From a virus (taxonomy: Duplodnaviria; Heunggongvirae; Uroviricota; Caudoviricetes): a DNA stretch of 2,498 nt. Every line of letters starts with the position of its first letter. The first letter of the stretch is position 1. The notes beneath the pieces were generated by a model. The model worked only from the letters and a program-made list of their open reading frames with translations. It did not search any database and was not told the DNA's origin. Shown here piece after piece: positions 1 through 1,672 of the stretch. The position numbers were made by a program, and so were the translations under genes. The stretch is from the IMG/VR virus record IMGVR_UViG_3300014846_000086. The stretch is one strand, 5' to 3'.

Positions 1-324
1 GTGGCGCAGTCTGCAAATGGCGTCTTTGTGTCTCTTCCTGACGTCGAGGATGTGGACAACGCCGATATTAACCAGCGCCTGCTGGAAGTCATTGAACAGA
101 TTGGCAGTTATTCCAGACAGATTCGTTCGGCAATCGAAGACGGTGTGGTGGAACCGCATGAGAAGACAGCAATTAACGACGAGCTGTATCTCTCAATTTC
201 GAAGCTGCAGGAGCATGCAGCACTGGTCTACAAAATCTTTTGCATTTCAGAAAGTAATGACGCCCGCGAGTGTGCAGCTCCGGGCGCCGTGGCGTGTCGT
301 GACTGTGGAGAAACTAACGCATGA
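1..324 (+). CDS. hypothetical acidic protein, 5'-partial (CDS almost certainly begins upstream of the window)
   Basis: Frame 1 is open from base 1 to TGA at 322-324. The translation is protein-like (acidic, helical-looking) and has no internal Met, so the only in-window start would be GTG at 1. The stop overlaps the next ATG (ATGA at 321-324). The alternative frame 17-415 has W/C/R-rich composition typical of out-of-frame sequence. No family recognised. Confidence 0.55.
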
Positions 325-659
325 ACAGTTTAACAACACACTACCGTCGCTCGCAACTGATTGCGCTTCCTGTACCGGGTGGAAAAGCGAAGGTGGAGTA
401 TTGCTATGCAGTTAATGTACCAGGTGACAGGGAAATTGTAACCCACAGCTTTGCTGAGTGGGCTGTGGGTGATTTCAACCGGCAGAAGGAGACAGTCCTT
501 TGCGACAAGTTAACCGCTGGTTCAAAGATCACTACGGAGTGCCCGTCAGAGTCATTCGTTGGGAGCCGGAAACACAACGAGTTATCTACCTCCGCGAAGG
601 CTATGAGCATGAGTGCTTCAGCCCGCTCGAACAGTTTCGTCGTAAATTCAGGGAAATAG
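321..659 (+). CDS. hypothetical protein; first ~60 codons credible, 3' portion probably out of frame (see frame-change finding)
   Basis: ATG 321 overlaps the upstream stop (ATGA), with GGAG at 307-310 ten nt upstream. The N-terminal translation [59 protein letters not shown] looks protein-like. After about 500 the frame-0 translation becomes Ser-rich and low-complexity, while frame +2 becomes strongly protein-like. Confidence 0.4.
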
Positions 660-679
660 AGGTCGGTCATGAGCACTAA
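500..679 (+). CDS. frame +2 ORF: either the frameshifted 3' part of the 321 gene or an independent small gene with a TTG start
   Basis: Frame 2 is open from 473 to TAA at 677-679 and translates to ...[59 protein letters not shown]. It contains no ATG. TTG at 500-502 is preceded by AAGGAGA (486-492) with a 7-nt spacer. It is absent from the ORF track, presumably because it lacks an ATG start. Confidence 0.4.
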
Positions 680-932
680 ATTAACCGGCTATGTATGGGA
701 TGGTTGCGCTGCATCAGGCATGAAATTATCCAGCGTGGCAATTATGGCCCGCCTGGCTGATTTCAGTAATGACGAAGGTGTGTGCTGGCCATCAATTGAA
801 ACCATTGCCCGCCAGATTGGCGCGGGGATGAGTACCGTCAGAACGGCTATCGCACGGCTGGAAGCAGAAGGCTGGTTAACGCGTAAGGCGCGTCGCCAGG
901 GTAACGAACCAACCCGACAGGAGAAGTCATGA
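669..932 (+). CDS. small winged-helix / helix-turn-helix DNA-binding protein (HTH_36 / PF13730-like), 87 aa
   Basis: ATG 669 has GAGG at 659-662 six nt upstream. The segment SSVAIMARLADFSNDEGVCWPSIETIARQIGAGMSTVRTAIARLEAEGWLTRKARRQG has the look of the wHTH domain found in small DNA-binding proteins of P4-like islands and in replication-initiator N-termini (recalled, not searched). The stop overlaps the next start (ATGA at 929-932). Confidence 0.75.
   Translation: MSTKLTGYVWDGCAASGMKLSSVAIMARLADFSNDEGVCWPSIETIARQIGAGMSTVRTAIARLEAEGWLTRKARRQGNEPTRQEKS
919..924 (+). promoter_or_regulatory. Shine-Dalgarno (AGGAGA) for the sid-like gene
   Basis: AGGAGA lies 5 nt upstream of ATG 929, inside the 3' end of the HTH gene. 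Confidence 0.5.
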
Positions 933-1672
933 ACAACACCGCAGTGAATAACAACCTTTCCACTTTTCCGGCTGTAACGCAGCGGGCACTGGAAACCATG
1001 AACACAGCCAGAAACGCATGGCTTGAAGCACGTCGTCAGCAGAAAGCGGCAGCGGATAATATTGCGACAATCCGCCAGCGTCGCGCTGAAATGGAATCCA
1101 CGACGAATACACTGAATGAGGAGTGGCGCACGCTGTTTCGTGAAAGTCAGGGCGTGGTCTCAAAGGAAATGAAAAAACTGCGCACGGAAATTGCGCTGGG
1201 ACGAGAAACGCTTGAGGATTTTGATGAGCTGCTGGCGGCTCAGGAAAGCGAAAATGCACTTTTGCCGCAGAAAGCTGCGGAATTAGCCGGAAAGTATATC
1301 CACGCGCATAACATTCTTGTGGATATTCGCGCAAAACAAATCTGGGAGGATTTTATGCAGTCGCATGGAAAAGCGCTTATTCAGACGCTGAGCCTGCTTA
1401 AATCCACAATGGGCCGGGAAGCCAGTGCCGTTGTGGGTGTGGTGAATTCAGTTAATGACCCGGACACAGTGCTGAAAGACTTTATTCATAAACATATCAC
1501 CAGACCGGCTCTGGCTAACGATGCGATGCCTGAACAGGACCCGGTGTTTAAACTGGCGGGAGTTGCCCCGGATTATGCGGCGCGTCTGGATTTCAGTAAT
1601 CAACTCTCTCCAGCAGCTATGCATAAAATAAAGGTTCGTCAGGAACTTGCTGAGAAGGAGAAAGCAGTATGA
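929..1672 (+). CDS. sid: Sid-like capsid size-determination (external scaffold) protein, Sid/Psu family
   Basis: At 247 aa it is close to P4 Sid (about 244 aa as recalled). It is clearly paralogous to the adjacent Psu homolog: N-terminal NARNAWLEARRQQKA vs NARILWARHSESRKA, central FMQSHGKAL vs FMQANGAAL, C-terminal LSPAAMHKIKVRQEL vs YTPAQHLRFQQRL. It has a long charged, helical central insertion. AGGAGA at 919-924 lies 5 nt before ATG 929, and the gene sits immediately 5' of psu. Confidence 0.65.
   Translation: MNNTAVNNNLSTFPAVTQRALETMNTARNAWLEARRQQKAAADNIATIRQRRAEMESTTNTLNEEWRTLFRESQGVVSKEMKKLRTEIALGRETLEDFDELLAAQESENALLPQKAAELAGKYIHAHNILVDIRAKQIWEDFMQSHGKALIQTLSLLKSTMGREASAVVGVVNSVNDPDTVLKDFIHKHITRPALANDAMPEQDPVFKLAGVAPDYAARLDFSNQLSPAAMHKIKVRQELAEKEKAV
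1655..1660 (+). promoter_or_regulatory. Shine-Dalgarno (AAGGAG) for the psu homolog
   Basis: AAGGAG lies 8 nt upstream of ATG 1669, inside the 3' end of the sid-like gene. Confidence 0.5.

What the first reader, a model, noticed from the sequence alone, without database searches (positions are those of the whole stretch)
321..679. Apparent reading-frame change inside a gene near a TTT run (499-501)
Frame 0 (from ATG 321) is protein-like for about 60 codons and then becomes Ser-rich and low-complexity until its stop at 659. From about 500, frame +2 encodes a convincingly protein-like 59-residue segment ending at TAA 677-679, with no ATG. Frame 2 has stops at 455-457 and 470-472, so any switch must lie in 473-515. 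A single-base loss in the T run at 499-501 would join the two parts into one protein of about 119 aa (...[30 protein letters not shown]...). Alternatives are a sequencing or assembly indel, a genuine pseudogene, or an independent nested small gene started at TTG 500 with the strong AAGGAGA at 486-492.
Basis: seen in the sequence. Interest (0 to 1): 0.5.

Follow-up and report, generated by a model that had tools for sequence, protein, structure and literature searches.

The report
Two overlapping prophage genes, no frameshift
The apparent frame change is two separately started, overlapping prophage genes: ymfM, the E. coli K-12 'cell division inhibitor', and a well conserved small gene of unknown function (DUF4222) in another frame of its 3' half; the published ymfM experiments I could read did not separate the two products.

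Summary
ORF 321-659 (112 aa) turns Ser-rich after about 60 codons, and ORF 500-679 in the other frame is protein-like. One detail is wrong: joining the frames needs a one-base gain or a -1 slip, not a one-base loss.

This is neither a frameshifted gene nor an assembly error. Frame 0 is ymfM (K-12 e14 b1148). The other frame is a complete DUF4222 (PF13973) gene with its own Shine-Dalgarno sequence (AAGGAG, 486-491) and start (TTG 500).

- In relatives the DUF4222 start is ATG, and some have a stop 0-3 nt upstream of it in that frame.
- In Yersinia-type phages a 53-aa homologue of the YmfM N-terminal part ends at the DUF4222 ATG (ATGA).
- No conserved fused protein exists.
- DUF4222 is under strong purifying selection (dN/dS 0.09) and is predicted to fold. 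The YmfM N-terminal part is under moderate constraint (0.25-0.43). The Ser-rich tail shows no amino-acid constraint and is predicted disordered.
- The frame-0 stop before the replication gene's ATG is conserved.

K-12 RefSeq annotates only ymfM and PGAP only DUF4222. The ymfM clone that caused filamentation carries DUF4222 codons 1-53 with their native ribosome-binding site, so the active product is unresolved.

The parts
1..324 (+). 3' end of ymfL (cII-like regulator). Its TGA stop (322-324) overlaps the ymfM ATG, giving ATGA.
   Evidence: Pfam PF06892 Phage_CP76, E 4.2e-8. RefSeq annotates ymfL here. The ATGA junction is present at 29 of the 33 loci; at the other four the first in-frame ATG found lies further upstream or downstream.
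321..659 (+). ymfM ORF, 112 aa, counterpart of E. coli K-12 e14 b1148 'cell division inhibitor YmfM'.
   Evidence: ORF list. K-12 annotation at the corresponding place. phrog_1170 matched full length, E 3.8e-70.
321..497 (+). Conserved N-terminal part of YmfM (~58-60 aa), the constrained part of that gene.
   Evidence: dN/dS 0.25-0.43 in three diverged sequence types. A stand-alone 53-aa homologue exists in Yersinia-type phages. phrog_20047 is a 63-aa family. AlphaFold confidence is only moderate (pLDDT 52-72).
486..492 (+). Shine-Dalgarno sequence AAGGAGA for the DUF4222 gene. GGAG ends 8 nt before TTG 500.
   Evidence: Sequence. GGAG/GGAGG/AGGGG-type motifs lie upstream of the DUF4222 start at most related loci.
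500..679 (+). DUF4222 gene, 59 aa, TTG start, in the -1 frame relative to ymfM. RefSeq protein WP_001250269.1.
   Evidence: PF13973 E 8.6e-19. PGAP annotation. The start is ATG or GTG at the same codon in other genera. dN/dS 0.09. AlphaFold pLDDT 83, small beta-barrel.
498..656 (+). Ser/Thr-rich C-terminal tail of YmfM, produced by reading the DUF4222 gene in its +1 frame.
   Evidence: Third positions of DUF4222 codons diverge as fast as in the neighbouring single-coding O gene (0.476 against 0.475). Apparent dN/dS in the ymfM frame is about 2. Residues 67-112 have pLDDT below 50.
657..659 (+). Frame-0 stop codon TAG. It lies 9 nt before ATG 669 of the O-like gene, which is in the same frame as ymfM.
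   Evidence: The stop is made by DUF4222 codon 53 (always NTA) plus the first base (A or G) of the next codon. The third position of codon 53 is invariantly A even though the amino acid varies (I/L, and V in Pantoea) and NTA codons are the rarest for each of these amino acids.
669..932 (+). O-like replication gene, N-terminal helix-turn-helix domain only. It is truncated at about 905 and the ORF reads into foreign DNA up to 932.
   Evidence: PF13730 E 4.1e-12. PGAP marks it 'incomplete, missing C-terminus'. Alignment with an intact O gene.
901..905 (.). Deletion joint between the lambdoid prophage and a P4-like satellite, at a 5-nt microhomology GTAAC.
   Evidence: Intact O reads CAGG GTAAC CGCAA, the P4-like element reads TTGAC GTAAC GAACC, and the window reads CAGG GTAAC GAACC.

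Best explanation
Window 321-679 holds two separately initiated genes of the early rightward operon of an e14/SfII-like lambdoid prophage. They lie between the cII-like gene ymfL and the O-like replication gene, and their reading frames overlap by 160 nt.

- ymfM starts at ATG 321, which overlaps the ymfL stop (ATGA), and ends at TAG 657-659.
- The DUF4222 gene starts at TTG 500 behind its own Shine-Dalgarno sequence (AAGGAG, 486-491), in the -1 frame relative to ymfM. It ends at TAA 677-679, just inside the O-like gene, whose ATG is at 669.
- No frameshift, indel or pseudogene is involved.
- The Ser-rich 'low-complexity' half of frame 0 is what a ribosome makes when it reads a conserved gene in the wrong frame. 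The ymfM ORF has no stop at the junction, so it runs on to the next frame-0 stop.

Shown here: the signals; family membership; separate starts in relatives; strong purifying selection and a confident predicted fold for DUF4222; moderate constraint on the YmfM N-terminal part; no amino-acid constraint on the tail; and a conserved frame-0 stop just before the next gene.

Inferred, not shown: that both proteins are made, and that ribosomes finishing ymfM at 657-659 and DUF4222 at 677-679 help load the O-like gene's start. Which of the two products causes the published ymfM filamentation phenotype is open.
For: 1. DUF4222 is a real gene. Pfam gives E 8.6e-19 over the whole profile. There are 139 homologues, nearly all stand-alone proteins of 59-70 aa. 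dN/dS is 0.09, with codon-position divergence of 0.13/0.08/0.48, like the neighbouring O gene. The predicted fold is confident (pLDDT 83).

2. It has its own start. The start is ATG at the same codon in Klebsiella phages. Among 27 genome loci it is ATG in 22, GTG in 2 and TTG in the 3 E. coli/Shigella e14-type loci, and most have an SD-like motif upstream. In L032 and L019 a stop in the DUF4222 frame lies 0 and 3 nt upstream of the ATG.

3. The two genes are separable. In Yersinia-type phages a 53-aa protein ends with TGA overlapping the DUF4222 ATG. This protein is 50-60% identical to the type-2 N-terminal part, one of the three diverged sequence types of this region.

4. ymfM is a real gene. 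It is annotated in K-12 and linked to an experimental phenotype (bioRxiv 10.1101/2020.11.19.390815). The N-terminal part has dN/dS 0.25-0.43 in three diverged types, and 29 of 33 loci have the ATGA junction with ymfL.

5. There is no conserved fusion. A search of 1.84 billion representative proteins with a fused 119-aa query found N-terminal-only hits, DUF4222-only hits, and chimeras with idiosyncratic junctions.

6. The arrangement is widespread: 2,745 of 5,426 complete E. coli genomes match window 300-700, and 2,031 of them over at least 80% of it.
Against: There is no direct expression evidence for either product (ribosome profiling, mass spectrometry); none was found in the searchable literature.

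PGAP does not call ymfM at all. The N-terminal part gives only a moderate-confidence model and matches no Pfam or NCBIfam family.

The E. coli start is TTG, a weak start codon.

The evidence that frame 0 is kept open by selection is only moderate. A naive synonymous-shuffle null gave P(open) of about 0.06 per sequence. That null is poorly calibrated: DUF4222 genes without an overlapping upstream ORF are also open in their +1 frame in 46 of 60 distinct sequences.
Confidence: 0.85

Rival explanations
1. One gene of about 119 aa (YmfM N-terminal part fused to DUF4222) has been broken by a one-base sequencing or assembly error, or by a genuine frameshift mutation (a pseudogene).
For: Inserting one T at 499-501 gives a clean 119-aa fusion. 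A few database proteins are such fusions, for example P0065 (119 aa, 14 member sequences) and P0059.
Against: The two-frame layout is present in thousands of independent complete genomes and phage isolates. It persists at about 74% DNA identity in Klebsiella phages and in at least eight named genera. Each fused database protein has a different junction, and several are visibly error-ridden. The DUF4222 frame has stops 0-3 nt upstream of its ATG in L032 and L019. DUF4222 proteins are stand-alone proteins of 59-70 aa.
Confidence: 0.02
2. Programmed -1 ribosomal frameshifting near 473-500 makes an N-terminal-part-DUF4222 fusion in addition to YmfM, as in lambda G/GT or dnaX.
For: The frame relation is right for a -1 shift, and an internal SD-like AAGGAG lies just upstream, as in dnaX (the dnaX comparison is from general knowledge).
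Against: There is no X XXY YYZ heptamer in frame 0 anywhere in 321-659, and the only such heptamer in any frame is out of register. The -1 frame is closed by TGA 470-472, which leaves only 27 nt. In relatives the stop sits 0-18 nt before the ATG (L032, L019, L020, L025). The local RNA fold is not unusual (z -0.79). Rfam finds nothing. A start codon (ATG, GTG or TTG) at that position in all 33 sequences compared would be unnecessary under this model.
Confidence: 0.02
3. Only DUF4222 is a gene, as PGAP annotates. The frame-0 ORF 'ymfM' is a non-coding or vestigial ORF that happens to stay open.
For: PGAP annotates no ymfM in essentially all RefSeq E. coli. The tail has no amino-acid constraint. 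The +1 frame of DUF4222 is stop-poor even where nothing reads into it. The structure model has low confidence.
Against: The N-terminal part has dN/dS 0.25-0.43, and its third codon position diverges faster than positions 1 and 2, in three diverged types. Its ATG is coupled to the ymfL stop at 29 of 33 loci. A stand-alone 53-aa homologue is conserved in Yersinia-type phages. The frame-0 stop TA[AG] is conserved at the nucleotide level while the overlapping DUF4222 residue changes.
Confidence: 0.08
4. Only ymfM is a gene, as the K-12 reference annotates. The DUF4222 ORF is a chance ORF inside it.
For: The K-12 RefSeq record lists only ymfM at this place. The E. coli ORF has no ATG.
Against: The codon-position pattern and dN/dS of 0.09 show that purifying selection acts in the DUF4222 frame, not the ymfM frame, across the overlap. 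There is also the Pfam family, ATG starts in relatives, and a confident predicted fold.
Confidence: 0.01

Closest known systems
ymfM (b1148) of the E. coli K-12 cryptic prophage e14, proposed SfiC cell-division inhibitor (Ansari et al., bioRxiv 10.1101/2020.11.19.390815)
   Same: Same gene: a 112-aa ORF in the same position between ymfL and the O-like gene. K-12-derived strains are about 98.5% identical over window 300-700. The K-12 copy contains an identical 59-aa DUF4222 ORF.
   Different: It sits in a different prophage copy, at tRNA-Thr next to proA rather than at the e14 site, and the right arm of that prophage has been replaced by a P4-like satellite. The preprint treats ymfM as a single-product gene. 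In the preprint text I could read, no frame-specific mutant is reported.
Pfam DUF4222 (PF13973); RefSeq WP_001250269.1 'DUF4222 domain-containing protein'
   Same: Full-length match and identical protein. The family consists of stand-alone small proteins of 59-70 aa from Enterobacteriaceae prophages, usually placed just before the replication gene.
   Different: Nothing differs in sequence. What database entries do not record is that, in this lineage, the gene lies inside another annotated ORF.
Out-of-frame nested phage genes such as lambda Rz/Rz1 (general knowledge)
   Same: A small gene with its own ribosome-binding site and start lies in another frame of a larger gene in a lambdoid phage.
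   Different: Rz1 lies wholly inside Rz, and both overlapping parts are functional and interact. Here DUF4222 extends 20 nt beyond ymfM. The overlapped part of the outer gene shows no amino-acid constraint. Relatives exist in which the two genes do not overlap at all beyond ATGA.
Programmed -1 frameshift genes (lambda G/GT, dnaX; general knowledge)
   Same: The frame relation is -1 and there is an SD-like element upstream of the junction.
   Different: There is no slippery heptamer. Stops close the -1 frame right up to the start codon in relatives, and a start codon is conserved there.
Small prophage-encoded division inhibitors (lambda Kil, Rac KilR, Qin DicB; as cited in the Ansari preprint)
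   Same: They are small proteins expressed from early prophage operons on induction. Expression of the ymfM fragment blocks Z-ring formation.
   Different: No sequence or family relationship was found. For this locus, the responsible polypeptide has not been identified.

Membership tests
DUF4222 (PF13973) | Match to the family HMM above the curated gathering score, over the whole domain | tested here: met
   67.3 bits against a cut-off of 27, E 8.6e-19; residues 2-53 match profile positions 3-52 of 53.
DUF4222 (PF13973) | Stand-alone small protein with its own start codon | tested here: met
   Homologues are 59-70 aa. The start is ATG or GTG at the same codon in 24 of 27 genome loci, and most loci have an SD-like motif upstream. 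In the window the start is TTG 500, 8 nt after GGAG.
ymfM of e14 (K-12 b1148) | Orthologous sequence and synteny (ymfL - ymfM - O-like gene) | tested here: met
   K-12 annotation and sequence. About 98.5% DNA identity to K-12 derivatives.
ymfM of e14 (K-12 b1148) | The 112-aa polypeptide itself inhibits cell division (SfiC phenotype) | not testable with these tools
   The published clone was the ymfM ORF in pBAD24. By the coordinates, that fragment also contains the SD, the TTG and codons 1-53 of DUF4222. The preprint reports no frame-specific mutant.
Programmed -1 ribosomal frameshift | Slippery heptamer X XXY YYZ in the zero frame at the junction | tested here: not met
   None in frame 0 in 321-659.
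Programmed -1 ribosomal frameshift | -1 frame open from the shift site into the downstream domain, and conserved in relatives | tested here: not met
   TGA at 470-472 in the window. In relatives the stop lies 0 nt (L032), 3 nt (L019), 15 nt (L020) and 18 nt (L025) before the ATG.
Programmed -1 ribosomal frameshift | Stimulatory RNA structure downstream of the site | tested here: inconclusive
   The minimum free energy of 460-560 is not different from shuffles (z -0.79). There is no Rfam match. Covariation was not analysed.
Frameshifted pseudogene | Intact single-frame homologues exist, of which this would be a broken copy | tested here: not met
   Only sporadic fusions with differing junctions were found among 5.8 billion clustered and 1.84 billion representative proteins.
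Dual-coding (overprinted) gene pair with both products constrained in the overlap | Reduced synonymous divergence of the constrained frame within the overlap | tested here: not met
   Third positions of DUF4222 codons diverge at 0.476 against 0.475 in the adjacent O gene, for the same 78 pairs.
Dual-coding (overprinted) gene pair with both products constrained in the overlap | Second frame kept open and its stop codon conserved | tested here: inconclusive
   Frame 0 is open in 33 of 33 distinct sequences, with 0 of 149 at-risk codons making a stop. In DUF4222 genes without an overlapping ORF the figures are 46 of 60 and 20 of 275 (Fisher p 1.7e-4, not corrected for phylogeny). The stop TA[AG] at DUF4222 codon 53/54 is invariant although the amino acid varies. 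An exception is the SfV/ST64B group, where frame 0 has no stop and runs on.

The most novel reading that the evidence does not exclude
The e14 division inhibitor SfiC, now assigned to the 112-aa YmfM polypeptide, could in fact be, or could require, the overlapping DUF4222 protein. The filamentation-inducing 'ymfM' clone also carries DUF4222 codons 1-53 with their native ribosome-binding site, and a deletion of the ymfM ORF would also remove the DUF4222 start and most of its coding sequence. DUF4222 is the better conserved and confidently folded product of this DNA. It is predicted to be a Tudor/SH3-like barrel of the same general fold as RNA-polymerase-binding domains.

A second, compatible novelty concerns the YmfM tail. 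It may be retained as a translated 'bridge' whose sequence is irrelevant but whose open frame and conserved stop deliver ribosomes to the start of the replication gene.
Probability: 0.3. Interest if true: 0.6.

Novelty: new member of a known kind. Interest (0 to 1): 0.4.

Why it matters
Both genes are already in databases, but never together. The K-12 reference lists only ymfM, and PGAP lists only DUF4222 in the other E. coli records sampled here. Phage annotators variously call frame 0, DUF4222, both, or even the antisense ORF.

I found no paper that mentions the overlap. This matters for one concrete question: which polypeptide is the SOS-inducible, SulA-independent division inhibitor SfiC of e14? 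That gene was sought for about 35 years and was assigned to ymfM on the basis of a clone and a deletion, neither of which separates the two products.

Three single- or triple-base changes that are silent in one frame and disruptive in the other would settle it. The locus is also a clean example for annotation pipelines. An out-of-frame overlap of about 160 nt is conserved across Enterobacteriaceae prophages, and rules that forbid long overlaps will always drop one of the two genes.

Tried and rejected
1. Synonymous-codon randomisation suggested very strong selection to keep frame 0 open (P about 0.06 per sequence). Calibration on DUF4222 genes that have no overlapping upstream ORF showed the null is too pessimistic, because 46 of 60 are open anyway. 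I downgraded this to moderate evidence.
2. The first viral-contig scan returned 80 near-identical e14-type loci and added no diversity. A second scan with distant DUF4222 proteins was needed.
3. The Rfam scan of the whole window at E up to 1 found nothing.
4. The promoter and terminator scan of 1-1000 found no promoter-like site and one chance-level minus-strand terminator-like site. I therefore treat the genes as one operon.
5. The local RNA fold at the junction is not unusual.
6. NCBIfam has no family for either protein. PHROGs has families for both frames, all of unknown function.
8. The YmfM model was too poor for fold search.
9. The journal version of the ymfM paper (J Bacteriol) is not in the library. 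Only the preprint was read, so later frame-specific experiments cannot be excluded.
10. The antisense 90-aa ORF at 404-676 is annotated in one Klebsiella phage. I regard it as the usual open antisense frame of a conserved gene and did not pursue it.

Full report
**What is in the sequence.**

The window comes from an E. coli chromosome (100% match to strain SW070917). Positions 1-905 are the early-right region of an e14/SfII-like lambdoid prophage integrated at tRNA-Thr. From 901 onwards the DNA belongs to a P4-like satellite.

- ATG 321 opens a 112-aa ORF ending at TAG 657-659.
- TTG 500 opens a 59-aa ORF ending at TAA 677-679 in the frame offset by +2.
- That frame is closed upstream by TGA 455-457 and TGA 470-472.
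- AAGGAGA lies at 486-492 and TTT at 499-501.

One claim is wrong in direction. The second frame is -1 relative to the first. Losing one T gives a truncated 63-aa product.

**Identity of the two frames.**

Frame 0 is ymfM. In K-12 MG1655 the corresponding ORF is b1148, 'cell division inhibitor YmfM', between ymfL and the O-like pseudogene oweE.

The other frame matches Pfam DUF4222 over the whole profile (E 8.6e-19). It is the protein PGAP annotates here (WP_001250269.1).

Window 300-700 matches 2,745 of 5,426 complete E. coli genomes, 2,031 of them over at least 80%. In the 60 records sampled, PGAP lists DUF4222 in nearly all and never ymfM. The K-12 reference lists ymfM and not DUF4222, although K-12 encodes an identical DUF4222 ORF. 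Phage records call frame 0, DUF4222, both, or even the antisense ORF.

**Is it one broken gene?**

No, for four reasons.

- Klebsiella phages at about 74% DNA identity keep both ORFs. There the DUF4222 ORF starts with ATG at the codon that is TTG in E. coli.
- I examined 27 genome loci from Escherichia, Shigella, Citrobacter, Enterobacter, Kosakonia, Raoultella, Atlantibacter, Buttiauxella and Silvania. The start is ATG in 22, GTG in 2 and TTG in the 3 E. coli/Shigella e14-type loci. The DUF4222 frame is closed by a stop 0-117 nt upstream, at 0 nt in L032 and 3 nt in L019. A fusion or a -1 frameshift product is therefore impossible in those relatives.
- Database proteins that do fuse the halves (P0030, P0052, P0059, P0065, P0090) each have a different junction.
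- A full HMMER search of 1.84 billion representative proteins with the fused P0065 found N-terminal-only proteins, DUF4222-only proteins, and a handful of chimeras. Their sequences show several frame switches or unique junctions.

DUF4222 proteins are otherwise stand-alone proteins of 59-70 aa. There is no slippery heptamer, no unusual RNA fold and no Rfam match at the junction.

**The two genes can be separated.**

In Yersinia-type phages (L119, L123-L151) a 53-aa ORF lies just upstream of DUF4222 (MNIVAAKRFIPQLRC...NHSRA.GIVG...). It is 50-60% identical to one of the three diverged types of YmfM N-terminal part. It ends with a TGA that overlaps the DUF4222 ATG (ATGA).

So the N-terminal part of about 55 aa and DUF4222 form a conserved pair of adjacent genes. 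In the Escherichia/Enterobacter/Klebsiella lineages the first gene has no stop at the junction and reads on through DUF4222 in its +1 frame.

**Selection in each frame.**

Across the overlap, divergence by codon position in the DUF4222 frame is 0.13/0.08/0.48. In the adjacent O gene it is 0.10/0.05/0.475 for the same 78 pairs.

| Region and frame | dN/dS |
|---|---|
| DUF4222 frame | 0.09 |
| Same DNA read in the ymfM frame (tail) | about 2 |
| YmfM N-terminal part, three types | 0.25-0.43 |

The value of about 2 is the expected artefact of reading a constrained gene out of frame. The tail therefore carries no detectable amino-acid constraint.

The ymfM ATG overlaps the upstream stop at 29 of 33 loci. 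AlphaFold agrees with this picture. DUF4222 folds confidently into a small beta-barrel (pLDDT 83). YmfM is moderate for residues 1-66 and below 50 for residues 67-112.

**Is frame 0 kept open on purpose?**

Frame 0 is open over DUF4222 codons 1-52 in all 33 distinct sequences. None of 149 codons that could make a stop by a synonymous change does so.

My first null model made this look overwhelming. It is miscalibrated, however. DUF4222 genes with nothing reading into them are also open in 46 of 60 distinct sequences, with stops at 20 of 275 at-risk sites. The contrast (Fisher p 1.7e-4) is not corrected for shared ancestry, so I count it as moderate evidence.

The frame-0 stop gives a cleaner signal. 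It is always made by DUF4222 codon 53 (ATA, TTA, CTA or GTA, the rarest codon for each amino acid) plus an A or G. The third position of codon 53 is one of only six invariant third positions in the gene. The others include the start codon, a Trp codon, a base in the next gene's Shine-Dalgarno sequence and a base in the next gene's ATG.

ATG 669 of the O-like gene is in the same frame as ymfM, 9 nt after the stop. Without that stop, YmfM would be fused to O. This fits frame 0 being translated to that point and suggests, without showing, translational coupling to the replication gene.

In the SfV/ST64B group the stop is absent. There frame 0 runs on for 278-400 codons into a Rha-like gene.

**Function.**

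Ansari et al. cloned 'the open reading frame' of ymfM in pBAD24 and saw filamentation and loss of Z rings. A ymfM deletion reduced SOS filamentation in a sulA background (bioRxiv 10.1101/2020.11.19.390815).

By the coordinates, that insert also contains AAGGAG, TTG and DUF4222 codons 1-53, which is the whole Pfam domain. A deletion of the ymfM ORF would also remove the DUF4222 start and most of its coding sequence. The preprint reports no frame-specific mutant and does not mention the overlap. I could not read the journal version.

**Verdict.**

The finding is real but is not a frameshift. It is an out-of-frame overlap of two known genes, each of which one annotation tradition ignores.

It is a new member of a known kind (overlapping phage genes) rather than a new mechanism. 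Interest is moderate, because it reopens which polypeptide is the e14 division inhibitor. Three point-mutation designs that are silent in one frame and disruptive in the other would answer that.

Noticed in passing
window 895-932; L002 3400-3410; L203 3990-4030: The O-like gene is cut at a 5-nt microhomology (GTAAC, 901-905) and joined to a P4-like satellite 28 nt upstream of its psu-like gene. The K-12 e14 oweE/aaaE junction lies within about 3 nt of the same point (after ...CGCCAGGGT). Two independent rearrangements therefore break the O gene at almost the same base. Only 1 of 5,426 genomes has the whole window.
   Followed up: partly
window 929-1672 and 1669-2220: Two tandem Psu-family genes overlap by ATGA. 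The second is a clear Psu (PF07455, E 3.3e-44). The first is 247 aa and matches only the C-terminal two-thirds of the profile, weakly (E 1.6e-9). RefSeq names it variously 'septation initiation protein', 'hypothetical protein' or 'phage polarity suppression protein'.
   Followed up: no
L116 1052-1888 (SfV orf37); L117 1058-2215 (ST64B sb41); L122: In SfV/ST64B-type phages the ymfM-frame ORF lacks the conserved stop and runs through the DUF4222 gene (out of frame) into a Rha-like gene. This gives annotated ORFs of 278-385 aa, and phage records leave DUF4222 unannotated underneath them. PGAP instead starts the Rha protein inside DUF4222. The true start of these Rha-like genes looks doubtful.
   Followed up: partly
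L123-L202 (distant DUF4222 loci): The +1 frame of DUF4222 genes is stop-poor even where no upstream ORF reads into it (open in 46 of 60 distinct sequences), whereas the +2 frame carries about 2-10 stops in nearly all of them. No explanation was tested. Inheritance from an overlapping ancestor or a codon preference are both possible.
   Followed up: partly
window 404-676, minus strand; L003 1652-1939, minus strand: A 90-aa antisense ORF covers the DUF4222 gene. In Klebsiella phage ST101-KPC2phi6.3 this antisense ORF is the one annotated, so across databases the same DNA is assigned to three different reading frames.
   Followed up: no
L001 10914-13134 (downstream of the window): The P4-like satellite carries a DprA-like gene and a phosphoribosyltransferase gene after ogr/delta. 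From general knowledge, P4-like elements often carry anti-phage cargo at this position. The same pair is present in strain LR-64-2.
   Followed up: no
[not shown]
   Followed up: partly
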